DNA of 29,607 nt from assembly GCA_019058245.1 (NCBI GenBank), contig JAHPZJ010000029.1, forward strand, positions 1-29,607. Direction: 5' to 3'. The notes beneath the pieces are model-generated. The model was not told the DNA's origin. It searched no databases and saw only the letters and a program-made list of their open reading frames with translations. This document shows positions 4,946 to 16,252 of this stretch, piece after piece. The stretch comes from Promethearchaeota archaeon (GTDB lineage Archaea; Asgardarchaeota; Lokiarchaeia; Sigyniarchaeales; SOKP01). Made by a program: the position numbers and the translations under genes. Positions within the stretch are counted from its first letter, which is position 1. Every line of letters begins with the position of its first letter.

Positions 4946-7141
4946 TCATTCAGAAAAAATTTGTTCAGTTATATTTTGTATTTTGTTTAATTTTTGATGT
5001 AAAAACATCTTAACTTTGTCTGAGGTTATTTTGGGATTATTCATAAATAAATCATAAACTACTAATTCACATTTCTTACCAGTTTTTGCTAACTGCTTAT
5101 GCAAAGGATTAAATTCATCATAAAGAGGAATTGGAAATAAAAAGGGTCTCTTATGAATATGTCTTGAACTTTTTATTAATTTTATTTTTTTTGATAAATT
5201 TGGATCATTTAAGAATGCTGATAAATAATAGGCTTCATTCTCTGAATCAGTGGAATAATAGTAGTTTTCAGATCCAACAATTACTTGCTGTTTTTTATTA
5301 TCTATAACAGCTGCTTTCAATGTGGATCCACTTGCATTATAAACAGCAATAAATGACTTGTTATTAATTTGTTTTTGCAATTTATTCCAATAATTAATGT
5401 TCTCAAACAATGTGTTAATATCACTAGTTTTCTTCTTATTTTGTTGATAGATTTTATTCATTTCTTTATAAAAATTAAGAGCTTTAGGATAATTTTGTAA
5501 GAAATCAAAGTCTAATTCATATTTTTCATTTACAGGAAGAAATATATTTCTTTTACGTTTAATAAAAAAAGGAATAAGATCCAAATTTAAAAAAGTCTTA
5601 AATTTAAACCATTGTTCTATTTCTCTATCTCTAAATTGAAAAGCCCACTTTTTTTTAGCTCGCGATAATACATCTGGATCAGTTGAAATTATAATGGAAT
5701 CCCCTTTTTTTTCCTTTTTTTTAAAAAAAATTAATGTTCTTGGAACGATTGTAGCACCTTGAAAGAATTTGTCTTTATAGGGACTTTTTTCTCTAATATT
5801 AAAAATTTCTAATTGCTGTTTAGGTAAAAGTAATTTTGAACCATTTTTTTCAATTTTTAAACTTGAGTAATATGTTTCTTTTTTTAATTCAAGTTTGTTA
5901 TTAAATAATTTGGCTTTTATTGGATATCTTTCTTTAATCGAAATATTATTATTTTTTCCAATATACTCCGCTTTCAAACATATGTGATTTACATTAAAGA
6001 AATAATTATTTGGAAAATCCCAAATTTCTAAATTATTACTAAAAATAGAAAAGGCTCTAAATTTATTGCAATGATCCCCGTTTAAAACACTTTTTGGCAT
6101 GACAAAAAAGACGTAGCCATTTTTTTTTAAAAAATTTAGAGGCGTGGCATAGAAAAAAATCGCGGCTAATTCGATGTGAGTAATATATTGACTAGGTGGT
6201 TTGATTCCCAAATTTTGTGATAATTCACGAATTCTATTCTGATAATCCTTTATAGGTAAATCTTTATATGTTAACCAAGGGGGATTTCCGATAATAATAT
6301 CAAATGAATGGTATAAATTCTTAATATTGATGGACGTCTCCTTATTATATATCTCAGGAAAAAGAGAATCAATCAAGAAAATGTTAATTCTTGGTGTTAT
6401 ATGATTTTTAATATTAAAATATTCTAAGAGTAGTAAAAATATATTCGATTTTGTTACCACAATAGCTAAGGGATTAATATCAAAACCGTATATATTAGCA
6501 AGTGCTTTAGATTTTTTTTGCTCTGATTCTGAAGAATCGAGAATTTTAATGACTAAATTAATTAAAAAATTACCTGATCCACAAGATGGATCTAAGATTC
6601 TTGAACCCATCGAATAGATATTATCAATCATTTTCTTAACTAAGGTTGAAGGTGTATAAAATTCCCCAATTTTATGGCGGATATCAGGAAGAATTATTTC
6701 TTGATATATATTACTGAACAATTCTTCCTTAGCAAATTTCATATCTCGAATAATTTTATTTATTTCAGTAAATAAATCCTTGTTAAACTTTATCCAAGAA
6801 AAGTACGAAAAATCCAATATTTTCAATTGTTTTAGATTAATTTTTAAATATTCCTCATAATCTCCTGTAATATTGAAATTCTTATGATTAGAGAGTTTAA
6901 AATAAATTAAAAGCTCCAATAGTAAGATAAAATAGGTATGTTTAAAAAATAAATCTGAATTAATCTCATAACCGTAAATATTTGTATAGAAATTCTTCCA
7001 CTCTCTGAAATTTATCTCATATGCTTTTAGTTTCTCTGCTTGTTCTTTAAGATATTCTAAAGATTTAAGATAAATCTTAGAGTTTACACCAAAAATTTCA
7101 GAAATAAAATGAGAATCTAAAAATTTTTTGATCTTATCCAT
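4946..7141 (-). CDS. N6-adenine DNA methyltransferase (N-6 methylase / type IIG-like MTase+TRD, no recognisable nuclease domain)
   Basis: GEFYTP, motif I ILDPSCGSGNF, YGFDINPLA and motif IV IIGNPPW are present, followed by a long TRD-like C-terminal region. Confidence 0.88.
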   Translation of the reverse strand: MDKIKKFLDSHFISEIFGVNSKIYLKSLEYLKEQAEKLKAYEINFREWKNFYTNIYGYEINSDLFFKHTYFILLLELLIYFKLSNHKNFNITGDYEEYLKINLKQLKILDFSYFSWIKFNKDLFTEINKIIRDMKFAKEELFSNIYQEIILPDIRHKIGEFYTPSTLVKKMIDNIYSMGSRILDPSCGSGNFLINLVIKILDSSESEQKKSKALANIYGFDINPLAIVVTKSNIFLLLLEYFNIKNHITPRINIFLIDSLFPEIYNKETSINIKNLYHSFDIIIGNPPWLTYKDLPIKDYQNRIRELSQNLGIKPPSQYITHIELAAIFFYATPLNFLKKNGYVFFVMPKSVLNGDHCNKFRAFSIFSNNLEIWDFPNNYFFNVNHICLKAEYIGKNNNISIKERYPIKAKLFNNKLELKKETYYSSLKIEKNGSKLLLPKQQLEIFNIREKSPYKDKFFQGATIVPRTLIFFKKKEKKGDSIIISTDPDVLSRAKKKWAFQFRDREIEQWFKFKTFLNLDLIPFFIKRKRNIFLPVNEKYELDFDFLQNYPKALNFYKEMNKIYQQNKKKTSDINTLFENINYWNKLQKQINNKSFIAVYNASGSTLKAAVIDNKKQQVIVGSENYYYSTDSENEAYYLSAFLNDPNLSKKIKLIKSSRHIHKRPFLFPIPLYDEFNPLHKQLAKTGKKCELVVYDLFMNNPKITSDKVKMFLHQKLNKIQNITEQIFSE

Positions 7142-7248: not shown

Positions 7249-7764
7249 TCACTTTCTCATAAATGAAGGAAGCATTAAGGAAAAGATTTCCGCAATCAAT
7301 TTTAACTTAGATTTCTCCTGTATTTTTGTAACTATTAAAATAGATTTTGATAGCTCTTCTTTATCTAAAGTACCTCCAGAATAAATTGCTTGTTCAGTAT
7401 TAAATACTAATAAAAACCTTACGTTAGGATTATTGACAATGCTAACTCCTTGAGTATTTTTTAGATCATCATAAATAGAGACCGATTTTTTAGAATATTC
7501 GCTCCTATCAGTAGTAATTAACAGTACTGGAATCCCTCGTCCAACAACTCTTTTGAGTTCTTTTGCATAAAATTCATCTACCTTAGGAGTTACAACATTC
7601 AATTGATCTGTAGTAGAATTTATCAAATTTATCAATGAGTCATTAAGTACATTTTTTTTTTCAGTGCCTCCACTATATTCTATGTTAACCATCCCAACTA
7701 ATGTCATTATCTTATTTTCCAGACTAGTTATTTGTTCTCTCAATTTTTTATTCTCTACACGCAA
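7249..7764 (-). CDS. Short coiled-coil plus PLD-fold (TrmB effector-like) protein lacking the HKD motif
   Basis: A heptad N-terminus precedes LINLINSTTDQLNVVTP...RGIPVLLIT...NPNVRFLLVFNTEQAIYSGGTL, which follows the PLD-like pattern but with HxKxxxxD replaced. Confidence 0.55.
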   Translation of the reverse strand: MRVENKKLREQITSLENKIMTLVGMVNIEYSGGTEKKNVLNDSLINLINSTTDQLNVVTPKVDEFYAKELKRVVGRGIPVLLITTDRSEYSKKSVSIYDDLKNTQGVSIVNNPNVRFLLVFNTEQAIYSGGTLDKEELSKSILIVTKIQEKSKLKLIAEIFSLMLPSFMRK

Positions 7765-7885: not shown

Positions 7886-10477
7886 CTAAGAGAATAATTT
7901 TCTCCACGGTTTTCCGAAAAGTAAGTAACTTGAAATAGCAAGACTATTGCGTAAATCAACTTTAGTTGTACCAATTCCTGAATTTGAATCTTTAATTTTT
8001 TCTTCTAAACCTTTTTCCAACTTATTTGCGATAGATTGCTGGCGAGCATTTAAAAGAGCCTTTCCTTGACTAGTCTTATTAAATAAATTGATTAAGAAAC
8101 TAGAAATAATTTGTTTAGTTACATCATTAAAAATTGGATAATTTTTTGAAGCGATCCCCGTGATTTTCTCAAAATTAAATTGAGTAATAATCTCCCCAAA
8201 GTGAGTTAAAGTATTTTTTATTTTTTTACCTTCAATATTAAACATTTGGGAATTAAAAAAAATAAATGGTTTAATTTCTGAAGAGTTCTGACATAATATA
8301 TTATTAATTTCATTAAATGTTAAAATTTGATTATCATTTGTGAGGAAGAAACTATTTCTAGGACTCAAATTAGAATAGAAAATATTCCCTACAAAAACTA
8401 TAATTTGATATATTCTAGAACTCAAATCTGAGATTATATTCTCTCGTGTTGAATTAGGTCCTATTAGTGTTGCTAATTGGTTAATTTCTGCTCTATTATT
8501 AAAGAAGTTTATTAAATAATTTAGTTCATCTGCTCCCGCCTGAAATGGAAAAATTAATTCCTTCCTTCTTTTATCTTCATTCCATTTTAGAGGACTATTT
8601 GAATTGATTGAATCAATTACTAGAATATTATATCCTATCTTGGGTGAATCTAATGAAGAATCTTCACTTTCCATATCATCAAAAACAATTCCTCTTAGTG
8701 GAACCTCAGAGATCTTATAGCCAATTGAATATTTTAAACAGAAAAAGTTATTATCATAGATAAGATCAAAAGGAATGGTCATATTTTCTAATATAAAATA
8801 TACTTGAGGTATTATATTTAAACTTTCAATCTTAAAAGATTTAAAGAAATTTCTTATTAACTTAGGGAGAAAAATATACAGTAATTGACCATATTCATTC
8901 AAATCAAAAGTATATTTACGGTCTTCAGATTCAGAGAAGAGTTCTTCATAAATTTCAAATATTTGAGAATCATTCCAATATTCATTAGAGATTTTACCAT
9001 CAATTAATTCACCACTTGTGGAATTCATTCTGTAAGAAATCATCCCATTACTATTAATTCTTAGAACTAATTGTTTTATCGCAAAATCTTTGTGAAAAAA
9101 ATCTGGAATATCATTATTATTATCAAAAGTATAAATTTCTTTATGTAGATGTTCAGTTTCATTATAGAGAACATTAAGATCAGTGATTATTTTACTATAA
9201 TCCTCATCTAAGTATGTAAGAATTTTCTGTGCTATATGATAATTTTGTTCTTCAAAAACAGCACGATAAAACATCATCCTCCAAAAATCTCGTTGTTCCA
9301 AAGCAAAGAACATGGATTTAAATTGCCATAAAATATTACATGTGTAGAAATAATGAAAAATTTCATCAGTTTTTTGAGGTAATTTTAAATGATTGTTTAA
9401 TTTTTCTAAGGATTGAAGTAGATATCTTTTCTCTCTCATCTCTACAAATTTATTACATGCTTCTACCCATAATTCAATTAGTACCTTATCATAAGATAAA
9501 TCTGTTTTATACATGAACAAATCTTCCAAGAAATCATAGATATCAAATGCCATTTCAAAACGATTTCTACTGATTGAAAAATCGATGAATTTTCGGATGT
9601 AAGTTACAGCTTCACTAAATGAATTATATTCCTGCATCTTTGAGAAAATATTGCGTATGAAGAGAATAATCCAAGAGTATTCACCGATGTCATTTAAATA
9701 AAATATCAGTTCTTCTAGATCAACTAAAACTGTGTCAAAACTTCTTTGATTAATTGAAATTCTGCTTATATTGCTGAATTCATTTTTTAAATATCCCGGA
9801 AGGCGATTTATTAATATTTTATTAATTTCTCTTACAAATTCAGCTGAATCATCCATTAATTTATATGTTAGACAGACATCTTCTAAAATTATATAAAGAA
9901 ATAAAGCACGTTTACCTGGTTCTATATTAAAAATCGTTTTACCTAAACCATCCATACTTAAATGAAAAAATTCGGAAGGTGTAACTGATTTCCTTAAAAA
10001 TGTCAATAATATCTGCAATTCAAATAATTTTTGAAATTCTTGGTTTTCTAATAATTTTGCAGAAAAAGAGCCTATGAATTTAGTTATCCCAATTTGTGAT
10101 AAATTCTCTATATCTACAAATTTTTTAAGGAGATTAATACTAAAATTATTGAATAAATAGGAATCACCTAGTTTAGATAAAAAAGAGAAGAATCTTTTAT
10201 ACGCATCAATATATCTGACTAAATCAATATCAACTTTACCATCTTTATGTTTTACTAATGAATTTAAATAGATCCACCATGAATTAGAAATAATCATATT
10301 AAGTTGATGTTTTTTCTGAATATCAAGCCATTCACTTTTTTCTATGTCAAAACTCAAATTTTCGAGCACATTACTGGCCCATTTATGGTTTGCTGCGAAA
10401 AGTAACTTACGAGCAGTTATAATTTTTTTTTGAAAATTACTTAAAAATTCCTTCTTAAAATCTAATTTCACAGACAT
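7886..10477 (-). CDS. Helical-repeat scaffold plus CHAT (caspase-HetF) domain, predicted catalytically inactive
   Basis: CHAT landmarks occur in order: YGQLLYIFLP, IPFDLIYD..FCLKY, GADE, GPNSTRENI, YQIIVFVGN, FIFFNSQ, GKALLNAR, YLLFGKP. The N-terminal ~450 aa look all-helical. Confidence 0.75.
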   Translation of the reverse strand: MSVKLDFKKEFLSNFQKKIITARKLLFAANHKWASNVLENLSFDIEKSEWLDIQKKHQLNMIISNSWWIYLNSLVKHKDGKVDIDLVRYIDAYKRFFSFLSKLGDSYLFNNFSINLLKKFVDIENLSQIGITKFIGSFSAKLLENQEFQKLFELQILLTFLRKSVTPSEFFHLSMDGLGKTIFNIEPGKRALFLYIILEDVCLTYKLMDDSAEFVREINKILINRLPGYLKNEFSNISRISINQRSFDTVLVDLEELIFYLNDIGEYSWIILFIRNIFSKMQEYNSFSEAVTYIRKFIDFSISRNRFEMAFDIYDFLEDLFMYKTDLSYDKVLIELWVEACNKFVEMREKRYLLQSLEKLNNHLKLPQKTDEIFHYFYTCNILWQFKSMFFALEQRDFWRMMFYRAVFEEQNYHIAQKILTYLDEDYSKIITDLNVLYNETEHLHKEIYTFDNNNDIPDFFHKDFAIKQLVLRINSNGMISYRMNSTSGELIDGKISNEYWNDSQIFEIYEELFSESEDRKYTFDLNEYGQLLYIFLPKLIRNFFKSFKIESLNIIPQVYFILENMTIPFDLIYDNNFFCLKYSIGYKISEVPLRGIVFDDMESEDSSLDSPKIGYNILVIDSINSNSPLKWNEDKRRKELIFPFQAGADELNYLINFFNNRAEINQLATLIGPNSTRENIISDLSSRIYQIIVFVGNIFYSNLSPRNSFFLTNDNQILTFNEINNILCQNSSEIKPFIFFNSQMFNIEGKKIKNTLTHFGEIITQFNFEKITGIASKNYPIFNDVTKQIISSFLINLFNKTSQGKALLNARQQSIANKLEKGLEEKIKDSNSGIGTTKVDLRNSLAISSYLLFGKPWRKLFS

Positions 10478-10501: not shown

Positions 10502-11698
10502 TTAATTATCTTTTTGATTAGAATTTTCCATACTTTGTACTTGATCGGCAACTTCTTGATTTGGATTGTTGATCCATCCCTTTTGTAACTTTTCCTGAGC
10601 CCATAAAACTGATGATCCTATCCAACCAATATTTTCTCTTCCAGAAGCAGCAATTACTTCAACTTTATTTTTCAATCTTTCTGAGAAATATTTCACAATT
10701 TCAATTTTTAAACGTTTTTCTAGACCAGGGATTAAACTACCACCACCAGCAATAATAATATTTGGAACTATTAACTCCCAATTTTCACGATCCCAAAATT
10801 TTATCACTTTTGAAACTGCCTCTGGCAAGCCTATATAATCTATATGAATTAATGAAGGAATAAATAAGGGTTCAACAAGTTTAAATCTTTCTGTATTAAT
10901 TTCCAATGATGAACCATCTGGTAAATCTACTTTTCTATTATATTTTGTTAAGCCATCTTTTATTCTTTTTATTTCCTCATCTGGATTAAGAACACATATG
11001 GATAGTTTATCTTTAATTTCTTTTGTTATCATTTCGTCAAGATTTAAAGTTTTAACAGATCCCTTTTTTGTTATTATTAAATTTAGAAGATAACTAGTTA
11101 ATTCCTTGCCAGCTATTGGATACAAATCCCTTGCCATAACGTTTGAGAAACCATGTAAAAACGTAGTGATTGTAGTATTTGCCTCCCCCATATTAATAAC
11201 TACACCACTAGTCTTTCTCAAAGTAGCTAAGATTCCTTGAGATTCAGATAAAAATATTAAGGATGGAAAGTTAAATACATTGAAAAAGATTTCTTGTAGC
11301 TTTGTTTTTTCCAATTCTGACATATTAAAAGGGGATAAAATGATAATTGGTTGTTTAAATTGATTTTCTTCAGCAATACTTAATTTTTTATAATGATGAT
11401 AAAAATATTTCATGAAAACATTATAATTACTTTCTTTCTTGAAAAAATGAACTTTCAGAATATTGGAATACTCTAAAGCTTCATTCCCAAAAAGCTGGCT
11501 TTCAGTATTTTTTTCAGTTATAAAAATATCCTCAAGTCCTTCAATTACATCTGATGTAAATAAAAAATCAGTGTTATCTACATAGATACTAGGTGCAATA
11601 ATATCAGGAAAATCATTTCCCGCCCATCCTAATCGAAAGTTCTGGCTCCCAATCTCTATAATTAGTGGACGTAATTGACTCTTTTTTTCATCAGACAT
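10502..11698 (-). CDS. Actin-family protein (divergent Asgard actin-related protein)
   Basis: Actin motifs present: LIIEIGSQNFRLGWAGNDFP (phosphate-1), EIFFNVFNFP, SGVVINMGE (phosphate-2), IAGKELTSYL, LPDGSSLEINTERFKLVEPLFIPS, NIIIAGGGSLIPGLEKRL (adenosine) and WIGSSV. Confidence 0.95.
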   Translation of the reverse strand: MSDEKKSQLRPLIIEIGSQNFRLGWAGNDFPDIIAPSIYVDNTDFLFTSDVIEGLEDIFITEKNTESQLFGNEALEYSNILKVHFFKKESNYNVFMKYFYHHYKKLSIAEENQFKQPIIILSPFNMSELEKTKLQEIFFNVFNFPSLIFLSESQGILATLRKTSGVVINMGEANTTITTFLHGFSNVMARDLYPIAGKELTSYLLNLIITKKGSVKTLNLDEMITKEIKDKLSICVLNPDEEIKRIKDGLTKYNRKVDLPDGSSLEINTERFKLVEPLFIPSLIHIDYIGLPEAVSKVIKFWDRENWELIVPNIIIAGGGSLIPGLEKRLKIEIVKYFSERLKNKVEVIAASGRENIGWIGSSVLWAQEKLQKGWINNPNQEVADQVQSMENSNQKDN

Positions 11699-11756: not shown

Positions 11757-12704
11757 TTATTGAGATAGCTTTAATTCATGAATAAATTCATCTGTAACGC
11801 GCTTTAATTGATATTCCTTAATCTGAAGCTCGAGTAGACCCAAAACTCGCTTAAACTCTCCAGACATAGATTCAATATTAACTTCCGCAACCTTCTCCGT
11901 TTCATTTCGCTTTATTTTAAATTGTTCTAAACTCTCTTGAATTCCTTCAAAAATACTATTTATGCTTAATGTCAAGTCATCAGTATTTTTCTTTGTAATT
12001 TTTCTCATTTTACGTAAAATTCCTAATATATTAGAAATTGACATTTCCCATCTATCATAATTTTCACCATAACTTGTTAATAAACCTTCAAAAAATTCTG
12101 TTAACTTTAAGTAAATGTTCTCTTTTTTAACAAATGAAGGCTCTTTTTTTGTAGATGGCGCCGGGGGCATTTTTTCCGCTCTTTCTAATGATTCGTTCTC
12201 ACCTGACGCTTGGAGTTCTGGAGATTCAGTAGTTTTTACTTGTTCAGTCTTTGGGGTTGGTGAAGGTTTAACTTCTTTAATTTTTTCATCTGATTTTGAG
12301 ATTTCAATCTTTTCTTTTTTTTCTGGAATTAGGGTGGTTCTGGGCTTTTTTTTATCTCGATCGCGTTGAGTTAAGGGAACATCTTCCATTACATAAGCTT
12401 CTGCGATTTTACTTTTGGATTCATGAGTTAATTGAGGTGTAATTTTTATTTCTCCCTCTTTTATTGGATGAATAAATCCTTTTTCTTCAGATACCCCTTT
12501 TAATAATGTTTGTAAGGTAGTTTCAGTAGTTTTTGCAGAACTTAATGCTGTATCTAAAGAATATTCAGGTATTTGATCAACTTCCCCTTCTTTTTCTACT
12601 TGTTTTTCCTTCTTTTCTACTTGTTTTTCCTTCTTTTGTTGTGGTTTCTCCTTCTTTTCTTTTTTCTTCTTATCTTTTTTCTTCTTTTTCGCCACTATAT
12701 ACAC
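11757..12704 (-). CDS. Hypothetical protein: Lys-rich N-terminus, disordered Glu/Lys/Pro middle, ~120-aa C-terminal coiled-coil/helical domain
   Basis: Long ORF lying 38 bp after the AbrB gene and 58 bp before the actin gene. The likely true start is GTG at 12695, preceded by AGGTG. Confidence 0.75.
   Translation of the reverse strand: MYIVAKKKKKDKKKKEKKEKPQQKKEKQVEKKEKQVEKEGEVDQIPEYSLDTALSSAKTTETTLQTLLKGVSEEKGFIHPIKEGEIKITPQLTHESKSKIAEAYVMEDVPLTQRDRDKKKPRTTLIPEKKEKIEISKSDEKIKEVKPSPTPKTEQVKTTESPELQASGENESLERAEKMPPAPSTKKEPSFVKKENIYLKLTEFFEGLLTSYGENYDRWEMSISNILGILRKMRKITKKNTDDLTLSINSIFEGIQESLEQFKIKRNETEKVAEVNIESMSGEFKRVLGLLELQIKEYQLKRVTDEFIHELKLSQ
12592..12637. repeat. 21-bp tandem duplication encoding (K)EKQVEK twice
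   Basis: TTTTCTACTTGTTTTTCCTTC occurs at 12592-12612 and 12613-12633. Confidence 0.8.
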
Positions 12705-12742: not shown

Positions 12743-13144
12743 TTAATCTAAGGGATTGAATTCTACGTCTAATGCCTCTCCCTTTTCTGTTAAAATATTT
12801 TTAAGTTGATTAATGTCGCTAGGACTTTCAGATATTGCAGTTAAAATGGCTTTTACATCCTTTTCGATAATCACCGCTTCCGAGTATATGAGACTAATCT
12901 TTTCTTCTGCAAAGATATCAAGTATTTTTGCTAAAGCTCCTGGAATATCTTTCATTACTATTTTTAACTTGATAAGATTGCTTTCATCCCGTAATCCAAT
13001 AGGAGTAATTCGTATTTCTTTTGTTTCCGAATCGCTTACTAGCATTAATTGGGAATTTGTTGTTATACCAAGATTCTTTCTCGTCACTAAAGGTAATACG
13101 ATCCGTCCTCGATTATCAACTGCTATAATTTTTACATCTTTCAT
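12743..13144 (-). CDS. AbrB/MazE/SpoVT-family DNA-binding protein fused to an ACT domain
   Basis: VDNRGRIVLPLVTRKNLGI is the swapped-hairpin signature. It is followed by MKDIPGALAKILDIFAEEKISL, the ACT D.PG.L motif. Confidence 0.88.
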   Translation of the reverse strand: MKDVKIIAVDNRGRIVLPLVTRKNLGITTNSQLMLVSDSETKEIRITPIGLRDESNLIKLKIVMKDIPGALAKILDIFAEEKISLIYSEAVIIEKDVKAILTAISESPSDINQLKNILTEKGEALDVEFNPLD

Positions 13145-13421
13145 ATTTTTTATTATCGTTATAATACTATAAATTTCTAACCAAAATTCATGGTAATTAC
13201 TATTGTTATAATTATTATCAAAATTATTATTAATAACTTTAATGTAATTCTATTGAGTTATACTTTAATAAATAAAATAATAACTAAATCCTGTTTTAGA
13301 ATCCATTTAAAATATCTGAGTGCTATAGAAAATAAAAGAAAATATTAAGAGCAAAATCAAAAAAGACTTAAACAAGAATAATTGGCTTATTTTTTGAATA
13401 TTTTAAATTTATCTTAGAAAG

Positions 13422-13431
13422 AAAAAAAAAA
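13422..13431 (-). terminator. Oligo-T tract immediately after the VWA gene stop (putative archaeal terminator)
   Basis: A T10 run lies on the minus strand 1 nt after TGA, followed by a ~280-bp AT-rich gap. T-runs are common in this genome, so the evidence is weak. Confidence 0.4.
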
Positions 13432-13432
13432 T

Positions 13433-15634
13433 TCAAAATTGATCCTTATGAGCTTTCATTTTCACTGTTAAGTCTCTAGCCCTTTTAGAATACCAGATCA
13501 ATAATTCTCCAGCATCTTCAGGCTTAAAGTATTCTCCACCGCATAAAGCTGCAGCTCGTGCCATTAATTCGTCATTTGGGTTTCCTAGTCCAACAACATA
13601 CACAACGACATCTGGATTATTGGCTAATTTCTTGATTTCAGTGAAAAATGTATCACCATCTGTAGGAATCCCATCAGTGAGCAGGATAATCATCGTTGGA
13701 TTTTGATCCATTTTATTGAATTCTGTGAGGACTTGATTTGCTGATCTCATTGCCGCTCCTAATGCTGTTGCTTGTCCATATGAATTTCCAACTCGATCGA
13801 CAATCACACGAGCAGCATCTTCTAACACTCCCTTTTTTCCACTTGCGGAATCCATGTAAAATTTATCCCCAAATGGAAGTATCTGGGCCTCATCCGCGAA
13901 CCTTATAACTGAAACTTTTTCTCCAAATCCCCTACCTACTTTTTCACTTAAGAAAAGTACAGCAGCAAATGCAGCTGATATTCTACGTGGTATATTAATT
14001 CCATCTTTAAAATGTTTCAAAAACTCTTGAATTTCCCGAGATTCCATAGCGGCTTTTATTCCCTCAATAGCAGGTGCAATGTTAACAACAAGTACGTCCC
14101 TTGCCATCATACTTCGGCTTATATCTATCACAAGAATTGCGTTAAATGGAATTAAACCTACGGGACTTAAAGACAAGGTGGTATTTGGAGTTACCTTGGC
14201 GAAAATATCCCCTGTTAGATCCGGTACGGTGTCTAGAATTGAACAAGCAATATTCACAGCAGACCATCGTAGTTTAATACCTTTAAATATTATATAATTT
14301 GAAATCCACCCTTTCATTGAATCTACATTTTCTCGAGTGGTACTTATTATTTCCCACATATTTTCTCCAGAAATAGGTGAAATTCCTAAGGAGATACTCT
14401 GTAATGGGATTATTGTTCTTTGATTTTTTGATACTTTTACTTCAAAACTACCAATACCAGATGCTTCTAAAATTTCACTATCAATAACAATCACATTATC
14501 TGGCGTCGTTTCTGAAATTTCAACTTTTCCAGCGCCCATTGCCCCAGTAAGTTCATCTTCAAAAGATAAGATCTCATCGGGCTGGAGAGACAAAGAATAT
14601 TGAGTACGTGGACTAACTAAAGCATAACCCATCAAACTTGGTTGAGATTGGACTTCCAACATCAATTCTGAAGCTGCTTGTATTGGAGGTTCAGTAGAGT
14701 ATACAACAATTTGTTCTGCTTGTATATTCGTATCTTCATAGGTATCTTTACTCATTTTTATTTCATTCATTCCAATATTTGCTTGGTCTATTCTTGCTGA
14801 CCCCATTGCTCTCGTTAAAGGGTCCTCCCATCCTATTAACATTCCTTGACCTAAACCTAATTGCTGAAGAATACCAGCATTTATTTGTACTCTTCCACCT
14901 TCAATATTATAGTCTAATGTTGGTGTAAGAATTATTCCATTTTTTTGTGTTTGGAGTGTATTAATGTCGATTTTATTTGGAAATGGTTCAACTGGAGCAG
15001 CAATCTGCCCTACTGGTTGTTCTACAGTTGGTCGTGGGATTTCCATGGGAGGTGGTGGTTTACTTGGAAGTGGTGATAATGAAGGTTGGGGAGTAGGAAT
15101 AGGTGATGGAATTGGTTGAGGAATAGAAGAAGGTTCAGGTGGAGGTGTAGGTAACGGAGATAAAGATGAATTAGGAGTGATTGTGGGTTTAGGTGGAGGA
15201 TGAGGCGAAGGTGGAGGATGAGGTGAGGGAGGAGCCTGGGGTGAAGGAACGGGTTGAGATGTAGGAACATATTGTGGAGCTGAAATTGATTCAGGTTTAG
15301 GAGTAGGTTCGGGTGGCGGAGTAGGTCCTTTTTTAGGAACTTTTGGAATTTTTAAAGTTGGTGTAAGTTTTGTTGCAGCGCTTACAGGACGTACTGTTAA
15401 TTCAACTCCGGAAAATTGTAAATCATCCAATAAATTCTTAGCAAATTGTCCAGCAAAATCTAATATATTATCAGAAATTTCGACTTTGGCTTCTGTTTTT
15501 AAGTTATTATCAATATTTAACACTTCAATTGGATCTCCATTCTTAACCCCTAATTTTGTGGCATTGGATTGACAAATTCTTACTTTACTTTTTATTTCAT
15601 TATTTGCATCGACAAAAAGTTTGATTTCAGGCAT
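13433..15634 (-). CDS. VWA-domain protein with three Cdc48-N-like barrels, an Nc-like subdomain and a long proline-rich linker
   Basis: MIDAS motif ILVIDISRS, VSVIRF, TALGAAM, ILLTDG, VYVVGLG and GGEYF mark the VWA domain. Three repeats resemble double-psi barrels: KVRICQSNATKLGVKNGDPIEV, RVQINAGILQQLGLGQGMLIGW and YALVSPRTQYSLSLQPDEILSF. Confidence 0.8.
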   Translation of the reverse strand: MPEIKLFVDANNEIKSKVRICQSNATKLGVKNGDPIEVLNIDNNLKTEAKVEISDNILDFAGQFAKNLLDDLQFSGVELTVRPVSAATKLTPTLKIPKVPKKGPTPPPEPTPKPESISAPQYVPTSQPVPSPQAPPSPHPPPSPHPPPKPTITPNSSLSPLPTPPPEPSSIPQPIPSPIPTPQPSLSPLPSKPPPPMEIPRPTVEQPVGQIAAPVEPFPNKIDINTLQTQKNGIILTPTLDYNIEGGRVQINAGILQQLGLGQGMLIGWEDPLTRAMGSARIDQANIGMNEIKMSKDTYEDTNIQAEQIVVYSTEPPIQAASELMLEVQSQPSLMGYALVSPRTQYSLSLQPDEILSFEDELTGAMGAGKVEISETTPDNVIVIDSEILEASGIGSFEVKVSKNQRTIIPLQSISLGISPISGENMWEIISTTRENVDSMKGWISNYIIFKGIKLRWSAVNIACSILDTVPDLTGDIFAKVTPNTTLSLSPVGLIPFNAILVIDISRSMMARDVLVVNIAPAIEGIKAAMESREIQEFLKHFKDGINIPRRISAAFAAVLFLSEKVGRGFGEKVSVIRFADEAQILPFGDKFYMDSASGKKGVLEDAARVIVDRVGNSYGQATALGAAMRSANQVLTEFNKMDQNPTMIILLTDGIPTDGDTFFTEIKKLANNPDVVVYVVGLGNPNDELMARAAALCGGEYFKPEDAGELLIWYSKRARDLTVKMKAHKDQF

Positions 15635-15862
15635 AATTATTCAATTTATTTTCTAAAGTATTTTAATATAATATAAGTGATACATCTTAAAATTTCTATC
15701 AACATTCATTAATTTTCTTTATAAATAATAAACTTATATCAGTATAAGAAACTTTTCTAAAGTTGATTATTTTGGATATAAAATATCTTTTTATAAAAAT
15801 CTTAAACAAATATTAAGTTTAAAAACAAATCTTATAAGAATTTTATTTTTAATATGAAATTC

Positions 15863-16252
15863 TTAGGTTATAGGATATCGTTTTGATATTTCTTGGGAGT
15901 AATATCTAAAAACTTTAACAATCTTTCCCAGATCTGCCGTTTGTCTTGAGGCTCCCATTAAGAAAAACCTTCCAGCGGCGCTAAGTATTATAAAACCATT
16001 ATCACCACGTAAAACTACCTCAAGCATATTTGTATAACCTAGAGCTGCAACAGCATCAGTTCCAGATTGCACAACCACAGCACTTAGACTTGAAAAGAGA
16101 TCTGGATCTAAGTTATAACCAGGAATTGCACTAAAGGCTAATCTTAAGCCCTCTCTGGTAATTAGGGCCAAAGCTTCAAGTTCTGAATACTCTGTAATGG
16201 AACCAAGGAAAGTACTTAAAGCAGAGGCTTCTTCAGGTGTTAAATCACTCAT
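15863..16252 (-). CDS. Roadblock/LC7 (MglB-like) domain protein
   Basis: LEALALITREGL, DLFSSLSA, LG...EVVLRGDNGFIIL and DLGKI match the family pattern; 129 aa. Confidence 0.88.
   Translation of the reverse strand: MSDLTPEEASALSTFLGSITEYSELEALALITREGLRLAFSAIPGYNLDPDLFSSLSAVVVQSGTDAVAALGYTNMLEVVLRGDNGFIILSAAGRFFLMGASRQTADLGKIVKVFRYYSQEISKRYPIT

What the first reader, a model, noticed from the sequence alone, without database searches (positions are those of the whole stretch)
7886..10477. CHAT pseudo-protease: both catalytic residues are replaced
Seen: the usual His motif (IIHFAGHG-like) reads IIVFVGNI, with Asn at 8384-8386. The Cys motif (LVFLNAC-like) reads FIFFNSQ, with Gln at 8246-8248. 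The other CHAT landmarks and the 863-aa frame are intact. Known: CHAT/caspase-clan enzymes need a His-Cys dyad, and helical-repeat+CHAT architecture is shared with Csx29 and, loosely, separase. Inference: the domain is retained as a peptide-binding or scaffolding module rather than decaying.
Basis: partly seen in the sequence, partly recalled or inferred. Interest (0 to 1): 0.7.

Follow-up and report, generated by a model that had tools for sequence, protein, structure and literature searches.

The report
Dead separase-like protease beside archaeal actin
An Asgard (Lokiarchaeial) archaeon encodes a well-conserved 863-residue protein built like separase or Csx29 (helical repeats plus a caspase-type CHAT domain) in which both catalytic residues are replaced in every relative examined, and its gene always lies directly after a divergent actin-related gene, so it is probably a non-cutting partner of that actin relative.

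Summary
ORF 7886-10477 (-) encodes 863 aa. IIVFVGNI has Asn698 at 8384-8386 and FIFFNSQ has Gln744 at 8246-8248. A profile-profile alignment with dyad-bearing CHAT proteins (99.7%, E 2.5e-25, 283 columns) puts Asn698 on the catalytic His and Gln744 on the catalytic Cys.

The modelled C-terminal 404 residues (pLDDT 85.5) match Csx29 (Z 19.6) and separase protease domains (Z 16-17.6) over their whole length. Caspases, metacaspases and MALT1 match only the last ~270 residues.

Among 136 full-length relatives, position 698 is Asn in 132 and never His. Position 744 is never Cys. No conserved Cys or His is present elsewhere in this protein's C-terminal domain. dN/dS is 0.07-0.29, so the protein is a maintained pseudoprotease and not a decaying gene.

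The family is confined to one Lokiarchaeial order, which includes Promethearchaeum syntrophicum MK-D1 and Ca. Lokiarchaeum ossiferum. It always sits in the cassette coiled-coil protein, divergent actin relative, pseudo-CHAT, His-less PLD-like protein. Related CHAT proteins in sister families keep the dyad and lack these neighbours.

A scaffold or peptide-binding role is inferred, not shown. No paper describing the family was found. This scan had already noted the same module in other genomes (one follow-up report, e1-5603719), and my results agree with it.

The parts
7886..10477 (-). Whole gene: 863-aa helical-repeat + dead CHAT protein (P0001)
   Evidence: ORF. There are 248 homologs of about 860 aa in Asgard MAGs. 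A full-length AF2 model has pLDDT 79.7, and its Foldseek hits are Csx29, DdvA and separase.
9128..10477 (-). N-terminal all-helical repeat domain (residues ~1-450, about 22 helices)
   Evidence: DSSP of the full model shows helices H5-27 through H434-448, mostly at pLDDT 85-95. Whole-chain Foldseek alignments to the TPR-CHAT proteins Csx29, DdvA and separase. W67, W269, W337 and R405 are invariant even in 17%-identical members.
8693..9082 (-). Accessory alpha/beta subdomain before the caspase core (residues ~466-595). It holds the CHAT landmarks LPxxIR, IPFDLIYD and FFxLKY.
   Evidence: The domain model aligns from model residue 7 onward with Csx29 420-750 and with separase protease-domain constructs. 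Caspases and metacaspases align only from model residue ~136-156. Motifs are aligned.
7889..8692 (-). Caspase-hemoglobinase (CHAT) core without a dyad (residues ~596-863). It includes a poorly modelled acidic/Ser-rich loop at ~598-613.
   Evidence: VIA-align gives Z 12-16 to SAVED-CHAT, metacaspase 4, caspase-7 and MALT1 over model 136-404. The low-pLDDT segment is seen.
8384..8386 (-). Asn698 codon (AAT) at the catalytic His position
   Evidence: Asn in 132 of 136 family members (Tyr 2, Ser 1, Thr 1) and never His.
8246..8248 (-). Gln744 codon (CAA) at the catalytic Cys position
   Evidence: Gln 125, Arg 8, and Lys/Leu/Pro 1 each of 136, never Cys. His in MK-D1 and Arg in L. ossiferum.
10502..11698 (-). 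Divergent actin-related protein (398 aa). Its stop lies 24 nt before the pseudo-CHAT start.
   Evidence: Pfam Actin 151 bits. It is the most divergent of five actin-family genes in this genome. It is ~25% identical to the genome's Lokiactins and both phosphate loops are degenerate. It lies immediately upstream of the pseudo-CHAT gene in every locus with enough flank.
11757..12704 (-). Lys/Glu-rich helical protein (315 aa), first gene of the conserved cassette
   Evidence: No Pfam, NCBIfam or PADLOC hit. Its C-terminal ~100 residues are conserved and syntenic in L001-L023 and L025.
7249..7764 (-). Coiled-coil + PLD-like protein (171 aa) lacking the HxK histidine, last gene of the cassette
   Evidence: PLDc_2 matches 9 of 10 orthologs (best E 1.3e-4) and there is a weak NucT match. 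The motif reads NNPNV(K/R) where HxK is expected. The C-terminal tail MLPSFMR is invariant. Syntenic in 24 of 25 loci.

Best explanation
The gene encodes a catalytically dead member of the TPR-CHAT architecture (the separase / Csx29 / DdvA type). It has an N-terminal alpha-helical repeat domain, an accessory alpha/beta subdomain, and a caspase-fold CHAT core in which the catalytic His is Asn and the catalytic Cys is Gln.

Shown here: it arose within Lokiarchaeia from dyad-bearing CHAT proteins. It has been kept intact, single-copy and under purifying selection throughout one order. It is always encoded 3-40 nt downstream of a degenerate actin-related protein, inside a four-gene cassette: charged helical protein, ARP, pseudo-CHAT, His-less PLD-like protein.

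Inferred: it no longer cuts peptide bonds. It works as a scaffold or adaptor subunit of a complex built around that ARP. The vestigial substrate cleft keeps N625, P629, W632, N698, P706 and S709 nearly invariant and may hold a peptide segment of a partner, much as separase holds securin or Csx29 holds Csx30, but without cleavage.

The confidence given is for the whole statement. The shown part alone I put at about 0.9 and the scaffold-of-the-ARP part at about 0.5.
For: - Dyad equivalence comes from the profile-profile alignment.
- Fold: Csx29 Z 19.6 over 294 residues and separase Z 16.3-17.6 over about 285 residues, covering model residues 7-401. Caspases match only 136-404. Foldseek E is 1.6e-10 to Csx29.
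- No dyad in 136 of 136 members, nor in MK-D1 or L. ossiferum.
- No conserved alternative Cys or His.
- dN/dS is 0.07-0.29 for both halves in 8 pairs.
- Distribution: full-length matches in 117/134, 7/14 and 1/1 genomes of the three families of one order. Elsewhere in 400 Asgard genomes only partial CHAT-domain matches appear.
- Cassette synteny holds in 20 of 20 close loci, and in MK-D1, L. ossiferum and two further MAGs, although the proteins are only 24-42% identical.
- Dyad-keeping relatives (IHYAGH...LNSC, IHFAGH...INAC) occur in sister families. One of them aligns over 644 columns including the helical part, and none has ARP, PLD-like or K-rich neighbours.
- No PADLOC match for any cassette protein.
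Against: - No experiment, expression data or complex prediction was available. Physical interaction with the ARP or any other cassette protein is inferred from gene order alone.
- The direct Pfam CHAT score of this protein is below the curated cut-off.
- The near-invariance of Asn698 is unusual for a merely vestigial position and could point to a chemistry or ligand not considered here.
- Position 744 varies in the deep branch (Q, R, H, K, L), so the two former dyad positions are not constrained together.
- Model coordinates could not be inspected, so the clustering of the conserved residues around the former active site is inferred from their alignment to CHAT and caspase loops and was not measured.
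Confidence: 0.55

Rival explanations
1. It is still a hydrolase that uses non-canonical residues, for example a Ser/Thr nucleophile, or an Asn-based self-cleaving lyase using the invariant Asn698.
For: Asn698 is kept in 132 of 136 members. S709, D575, D715, K582 and E499 are conserved at 95% or more. Strict conservation at a former catalytic position is more than a dead site strictly needs.
Against: No conserved Cys or His is available. S709 and the preceding Pro are general CHAT structural landmarks that dyad-bearing relatives also have. I know of no precedent for a Cys-independent clan-CD protease (own knowledge).
Confidence: 0.05
2. It is a decoy or regulator of an active CHAT protease paralog, as cFLIP is for caspase-8, and the ARP linkage is incidental.
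For: Some genomes of the same family also carry long (1142-1155 aa) CHAT-domain ORFs. Examples are G121:C57, G099:C39, G343:C46 and G345:C46. One of them, L032, reads IIHFSGHAF.
Against: The window's own genome has no match to Pfam CHAT at E <= 0.01, although it is only 76% complete. In these searches the active paralogs were patchy while the pseudo-CHAT was found in most genomes of the order. The dyad-keeping relatives are not syntenic with it.
Confidence: 0.08
3. It is part of a defence or conflict system. CHAT domains are common effectors in CBASS and type III CRISPR systems, and here the domain would be degenerated into a sensor.
For: The closest solved structures are defence proteins: Csx29, SAVED-CHAT and DdvA. 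In this family of genomes a type IIG-like methyltransferase gene lies just downstream.
Against: The gene is near-universal, single-copy and syntenic across an order, and its divergence looks vertical (24% identity between sub-lineages with the same gene order). That pattern is unlike the patchy distribution of defence islands. There are no PADLOC hits for the four cassette proteins. The methyltransferase is not part of the cassette in MK-D1 or L. ossiferum.
Confidence: 0.07
4. It is a maintained pseudoprotease scaffold, but its partner or ligand lies outside the cassette. Gene order with the ARP would then reflect shared transcription only.
For: Only synteny links the genes. No fusion of ARP and pseudo-CHAT appeared among the homologs listed.
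Against: The gap between the ARP and pseudo-CHAT genes is 3-40 nt, and the order of four genes persists despite divergence to 24-42% identity. Among prokaryotes that usually marks subunits of one complex or steps of one pathway (established comparative-genomics principle).
Confidence: 0.2

Closest known systems
Csx29 / TPR-CHAT (Craspase protease of type III-E CRISPR-Cas)
   Same: Same overall layout: helical repeats, an accessory subdomain and a CHAT core. It is the best structural match (Z 19.6, rmsd 3.9 A, 294 residues, Csx29 420-750) and the top whole-chain Foldseek hit.
   Different: Csx29 has an active His-Cys dyad and works bound to Cas7-11. This protein has Asn and Gln at those positions, has no CRISPR neighbours, and shares only ~10-12% identity. 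It sits in an ARP cassette in archaea.
Separase (Peptidase C50)
   Same: Helical-repeat N-terminus plus a C-terminal protease region whose catalytic caspase fold is preceded by an accessory, non-catalytic subdomain (own knowledge). The model aligns over its full length with C. thermophilum (Z 17.6), human (Z 17.3) and yeast (Z 16.3) separase.
   Different: Separase is an active Arg-specific protease of about 1100-2200 aa. No Pfam Peptidase_C50 match was found here or in any of 58 orthologs. No specific phylogenetic affinity to separase was tested.
DdvA anti-sigma factor of Myxococcus xanthus (periplasmic TPR-CHAT)
   Same: A TPR-CHAT architecture used in a regulatory, non-degradative setting. 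Foldseek E is about 1e-6 and Z is 13.9.
   Different: DdvA keeps the canonical dyad H862/C907 in a resting geometry (PMC11506125). It is a membrane protein and a dimer.
Bacterial pseudo-orthocaspases
   Same: Conserved prokaryotic clan-CD domains in which both dyad residues are replaced and the protein is nevertheless maintained (PMC6426788).
   Different: They are p20-type (Peptidase C14) proteins with Tyr/Ser at the dyad positions. They have no helical-repeat domain and no actin link. This protein is CHAT-type with Asn/Gln.
Asgard actin-related proteins (the three non-Lokiactin actin homologues of Ca. L. ossiferum)
   Same: The upstream partner gene belongs to this group. L. ossiferum and MK-D1 carry the same ARP and pseudo-CHAT gene pair. 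The paper reports transcripts of all four actin homologues (PMC9834061).
   Different: The paper does not mention CHAT (0 occurrences). Which of its three ARPs is the one in the cassette was not resolved here.

Membership tests
CHAT domain (Pfam PF12770, clan CD) | Significant sequence similarity to the CHAT profile | tested here: met
   hhalign of the family profile against 20 dyad-bearing CHAT proteins gives 99.7%, E 2.5e-25 over 283 columns. 33 of 58 orthologs hit PF12770, the best at 5.3e-8. This protein alone scores 18.9 bits, below the 24-bit cut-off.
CHAT domain (Pfam PF12770, clan CD) | Caspase-hemoglobinase fold | tested here: met
   Domain model has pLDDT 85.5 and pTM 0.87. Z is 19.6 to Csx29, 16.3 to SAVED-CHAT, 14-15 to gingipain and metacaspase, and 12.6 to caspase-7.
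CHAT domain (Pfam PF12770, clan CD) | Catalytic His-Cys dyad (active protease) | tested here: not met
   Asn698 and Gln744 sit at the aligned positions. 0 of 136 relatives have His or Cys there.
TPR-CHAT proteases (separase / Csx29 / DdvA type) | N-terminal alpha-helical repeat domain fused to a C-terminal CHAT domain | tested here: met
   About 22 helices over residues 5-448 are followed by the CHAT region. Whole-chain Foldseek hits are Csx29, DdvA and separase at E 5.6e-9 to 1e-4.
TPR-CHAT proteases (separase / Csx29 / DdvA type) | Accessory subdomain directly before the catalytic caspase fold | tested here: met
   Alignments to Csx29 and separase start at model residue 5-9. Those to caspases, metacaspases and MALT1 start at 136-156.
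TPR-CHAT proteases (separase / Csx29 / DdvA type) | Proteolytic activity through the dyad | tested here: not met
   The dyad is absent. Activity itself cannot be tested with these tools.
Separase (Pfam Peptidase_C50) | Match to the Peptidase_C50 profile | tested here: not met
   No PF03568 hit at E <= 1 for this protein, nor at E <= 0.1 for 58 orthologs. Dyad-bearing CHAT relatives P0188 and P0190 do hit it weakly.
Csx29 (type III-E CRISPR accessory protease) | Encoded beside Cas7-11/gRAMP and Csx30/Csx31 | tested here: not met
   The neighbours are an ARP, a helical protein, a PLD-like protein, a methyltransferase, a VWA protein and a Roadblock protein. No PADLOC hits.
Pseudo-orthocaspases | p20 (Peptidase C14) domain with Tyr/Ser in place of His/Cys | tested here: not met
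   No Peptidase_C14 hit. The substitutions are Asn/Gln. Only the principle is shared, a conserved dead clan-CD domain (PMC6426788).

The most novel reading that the evidence does not exclude
The four-gene cassette encodes a so far unknown actin-related-protein complex of Lokiarchaeia, made largely of former enzymes: a degenerate-ATPase ARP, a dead separase-like TPR-CHAT and a His-less PLD fold. In it the dead protease cleft permanently holds a partner peptide. One candidate is the invariant Arg-ending C-terminal tail MLPSFMR of the PLD-like protein, which looks like the product of an Arg-specific clan-CD protease. The Lokiarchaeial TPR-CHAT clade, with both dead and dyad-keeping members, could in addition be close kin of the ancestor of eukaryotic separase.
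Probability: 0.12. Interest if true: 0.85.

Novelty: new variant of a known kind. Interest (0 to 1): 0.62.

Why it matters
The functions of Asgard actin-related proteins are unknown. In eukaryotes, ARPs always work inside multi-subunit complexes. A gene pair conserved across a whole order, and present in both cultured Lokiarchaeia (MK-D1 and L. ossiferum), names concrete candidate partners that can be tested now by co-purification, structure prediction and localisation.

It also adds a clear example of a maintained pseudoprotease in the separase/Csx29 architecture, all of whose characterised members are active proteases. Finally, it shows that Asgard archaea hold both live and dead versions of that architecture, which bears on where separase came from.

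Tried and rejected
- **Searches that gave nothing useful.** The PDB sequence-profile search with the family alignment found no CHAT structure, only a chance eS24 hit at E 0.054. The search for related loci with the 14-sequence deep alignment failed for lack of a conserved stretch, and a 5-sequence alignment worked.
- **Expression.** No RNA holder was listed for the cassette. Nothing can be said on expression in this organism.
- **Family libraries.** PADLOC gave nothing for any of the four cassette proteins. NCBIfam gave nothing for the pseudo-CHAT or the K-rich protein, and only far-sub-threshold hits for the ARP and the PLD-like protein.
- **Relocated dyad rejected.** Cys580, Cys729 and His759 of this protein are not conserved. 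The family's commoner His691 and Cys815 are Gln and Ser here. Two deep members have a Cys one position before the Cys column, but they lack the His.
- **Fusions.** No ARP and pseudo-CHAT fusion appeared among the listed homologs. 'Longer' and 'shorter' length searches were not run, so split or fused forms are not excluded.
- **Literature.** In the held library, the one paper with 'Asgard' + 'CHAT domain' and the one with 'separase' + 'Asgard' (separase named only in a list of cohesin interactors) do not treat this family. 'Asgard' + 'actin-related protein' + 'separase' found none. A 2026 preprint on structural clustering of Asgard proteins mentions neither separase nor a CHAT domain.
- **Coordinates.** Model coordinates are not exposed, so pocket geometry could not be measured.
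Full report
**Observation**

The minus-strand frame 7886-10477 is open for 863 codons. IIVFVGNI occupies residues 692-699, with Asn698 encoded by AAT at 8384-8386. FIFFNSQ occupies residues 738-744, with Gln744 encoded by CAA at 8246-8248.

**Is it a CHAT domain, and are these the dyad positions?**

The direct Pfam match is weak: PF12770 at E 0.0011 and 18.9 bits, below the 24-bit cut-off, covering residues 549-726. At family level the link is solid.
- 33 of 58 orthologs hit CHAT, the best at E 5.3e-8.
- A profile of 58 orthologs, searched against 1.84 billion representative proteins, reaches CHAT proteins at E 1e-8 to 1e-3. Five of the six sampled score 92-145 bits against Pfam CHAT, and the sixth, P0179, scores 79.7 bits.
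- hhalign of the family profile against 20 dyad-bearing hits, in which the two His and the Cys are invariant, gives 99.7% probability and E 2.5e-25 over 283 columns.

In that alignment 'ydIIHyAGHa' pairs with 'yhIIxFVGNI' and 'lvFlNAC' pairs with 'flFFNsQ'. One template even reads FFNSC against FFNSQ. Asn698 therefore replaces the catalytic His and Gln744 the catalytic Cys. Other CHAT landmarks persist: IPWEL/IPFDL, FLCLKY/FFLLKY, the P..S motif, and LYGDP/LFGKPW.

**Fold**

The full-length AF2 model (pLDDT 79.7) has about 22 helices over residues 5-448, followed by an alpha/beta region. Its Foldseek hits are Csx29/TPR-CHAT, DdvA, separase and SAVED-CHAT.

Residues 460-863, modelled alone with a 41-sequence alignment, give pLDDT 85.5 and pTM 0.87. 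Foldseek then gives Csx29 at E 1.6e-10, followed by SAVED-CHAT, gingipain, DdvA, separase, CED-3, MALT1 and caspases.

VIA-align results:

| Match | Z | Notes |
|---|---|---|
| Csx29 | 19.6 | rmsd 3.9 A, 294 residues |
| C. thermophilum separase protease domain | 17.6 | |
| Human separase | 17.3 | |
| Yeast separase | 16.3 | |
| Caspase-7, metacaspases, MALT1, SAVED-CHAT | 12-16 | cover only model residues ~136-404 |

The Csx29 and separase matches span model residues 5-404. The protein therefore shares the accessory subdomain that precedes the catalytic fold in TPR-CHAT proteases, not just the caspase core. All characterised members of that architecture that I could check keep the dyad. DdvA has H862/C907 (PMC11506125).

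**Is the loss conserved?**

The search for homologous proteins returned 248 relatives. All of the best 120 are about 800-870 aa, 58-87% identical, and come from Asgard MAGs. The representative search added members of 833-911 aa that are 17-24% identical.

In a MAFFT alignment of 136 full-length members:
- Position 698 is Asn in 132, Tyr in 2, Ser in 1 and Thr in 1. It is never His.
- Position 744 is Gln in 125, Arg in 8, and Lys, Leu and Pro in one each. It is never Cys.
- N625, P629, W632 and P706 are kept in all 136, and S709 in 135.
- The only C-terminal columns with frequent His or Cys (691 and 815) are Gln and Ser in this protein, so no relocated dyad exists.

The MK-D1 ortholog reads Asn/His and the L. 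ossiferum ortholog reads Asn/Arg.

Nei-Gojobori dN/dS for eight ortholog pairs is 0.07-0.18 for the N-terminal half. It is 0.12-0.26 for the C-terminal half and 0.11-0.29 for its caspase-fold core. The domain is maintained, not decaying.

**Distribution**

With a 17-sequence deep profile over 400 Asgard genomes, full-length matches occur in 117/134, 7/14 and 1/1 genomes of the three families of one order. Elsewhere only partial CHAT-domain matches appear. The earlier close-ortholog profile had found 39/40 in the window's own family.

The search for related loci named two members of the order: Promethearchaeum syntrophicum MK-D1 (NZ_CP042905.2) and Ca. Lokiarchaeum ossiferum B35 (CP104013.1).

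**Origin**

CHAT proteins from two other families of the same class keep the dyad (IHYAGH...LNSC; IHFAGH...INAC). One of them, a 1012-aa protein (G241:C184), aligns with the family profile over 644 columns including part of the helical region, at probability 99.1%. None of these relatives has the neighbours described below. The dead family thus looks derived from live TPR-CHAT proteins within Lokiarchaeia.

**Context**

In all 20 loci fetched from the window's family the order is: K-rich helical protein, actin-related protein, pseudo-CHAT, PLD-like protein (the last missing in one locus). A methyltransferase follows.

The same four-gene order is found in MK-D1, L. ossiferum and two more MAGs, although identities to the window's proteins fall to about 24% (pseudo-CHAT), 27-31% (ARP), 26-34% (K-rich) and 37-43% (PLD-like). 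The methyltransferase is not conserved there.

The gap between the ARP and the pseudo-CHAT is 24 nt in the window and 3 nt in MK-D1.

The ARP scores 151 bits on Pfam Actin. It is the most divergent of five actin-family genes in the genome. Both phosphate loops are degenerate compared with the genome's Lokiactins.

The 171-aa downstream protein is a coiled coil plus a PLD-like domain. PLDc_2 matches 9 of 10 orthologs, the best at 1.3e-4. Its HxK histidine is Asn (NNPNVK), and its C-terminal tail MLPSFMR is invariant.

None of the four proteins matches PADLOC. In NCBIfam the pseudo-CHAT and the K-rich protein match nothing, and the ARP and the PLD-like protein give only far-sub-threshold hits.

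**Interpretation**

Shown: this is a TPR-CHAT-type protein without a dyad, maintained by selection, restricted to one order, and invariably linked to a degenerate ARP.

Inferred: it is a non-catalytic scaffold or adaptor of an ARP-containing complex, using the conserved former substrate cleft to bind a peptide.

Speculative: the ligand may be the Arg-ending tail of the PLD-like partner, which resembles the product of an Arg-specific clan-CD protease.

The rivals are residual non-canonical catalysis, a decoy for an active paralog, a defence system, and a partner outside the cassette. They are weighed in the report sections. None is excluded experimentally.

**Novelty**

Conserved dead clan-CD domains are known. 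Examples are the pseudo-orthocaspases with Tyr/Ser (PMC6426788), and cFLIP and the non-catalytic subdomain of separase (own knowledge).

I found no paper describing a dead TPR-CHAT, an Asgard CHAT family, or any partner of an Asgard ARP. The L. ossiferum paper reports four actin homologues, all transcribed, and does not mention CHAT. UniRef labels one ortholog 'CHAT domain-containing protein', and the other named orthologs are 'hypothetical protein'. I class this as a new variant of a known kind.

This scan had already noted the same module in other genomes, and one follow-up (e1-5603719) reached the same overall reading. My tests were run independently and agree.

**Limits**

There are no expression data: no RNA holder was listed. 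No complex prediction was possible.

Noticed in passing
window 7249-7764 (-): The 171-aa coiled-coil + PLD-like protein has Asn where the HxK histidine is expected (NNPNVK/R). It ends in an invariant tail MLPSFMR(K/S) across orthologs that are only 37-42% identical (MK-D1, L. ossiferum). It may be a second pseudoenzyme and a possible peptide ligand.
   Followed up: partly
window 10502-11698 (-): The actin-related protein has degenerate phosphate-1 (EIGSQ against DNGTG) and phosphate-2 (NMGEA against DIGDG) loops relative to this genome's Lokiactins. The MK-D1-type orthologs differ again (DVGAF, DMGYY). It is the most divergent of five actin-family genes in the genome (146-441 bits).
   Followed up: partly
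window 4946-7141 (-): A 731-aa N6-adenine methyltransferase of type IIG-like kind (PADLOC REase_MTase_IIG, E 1.9e-34) follows the cassette in the window's GTDB family. It shows no match in the MK-D1, L. ossiferum or related loci. In two loci (L001, L002) it matches only the C-terminal part at 33% identity.
   Followed up: partly
L026 (G241:C184:1533-4571), L027-L029: Other Lokiarchaeia-class families carry dyad-keeping CHAT proteins. One of 1012 aa shares part of the helical region with the dead family. They could serve as the live outgroup for dating the loss of the dyad.
   Followed up: partly
G030:C10, G135:C180, G289:C3, G138, G269, G180, G129 (genome search rows): A few orthologs show 1-3 in-frame TAA or TAG stops, or are split over contigs. 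This could mean occasional pseudogenisation or assembly errors. It was not examined.
   Followed up: no
window 12743-16252 (-): On the same strand upstream lie an ACT-domain protein (133 aa), a 733-aa VWA protein and a Roadblock/LC7 protein. tblastn found none of them in the MK-D1, L. ossiferum or related loci (each with up to 6 kb of flank), so they are not part of the conserved core.
   Followed up: partly
window 8639-8687 (-) (residues ~598-613): An acidic, Ser-rich and poorly modelled loop (DDMESEDSSLDSPKIG) lies between the FFxLKY motif and the first core strand. Its sequence varies among orthologs. It could be a regulatory or phosphorylated linker.
   Followed up: no
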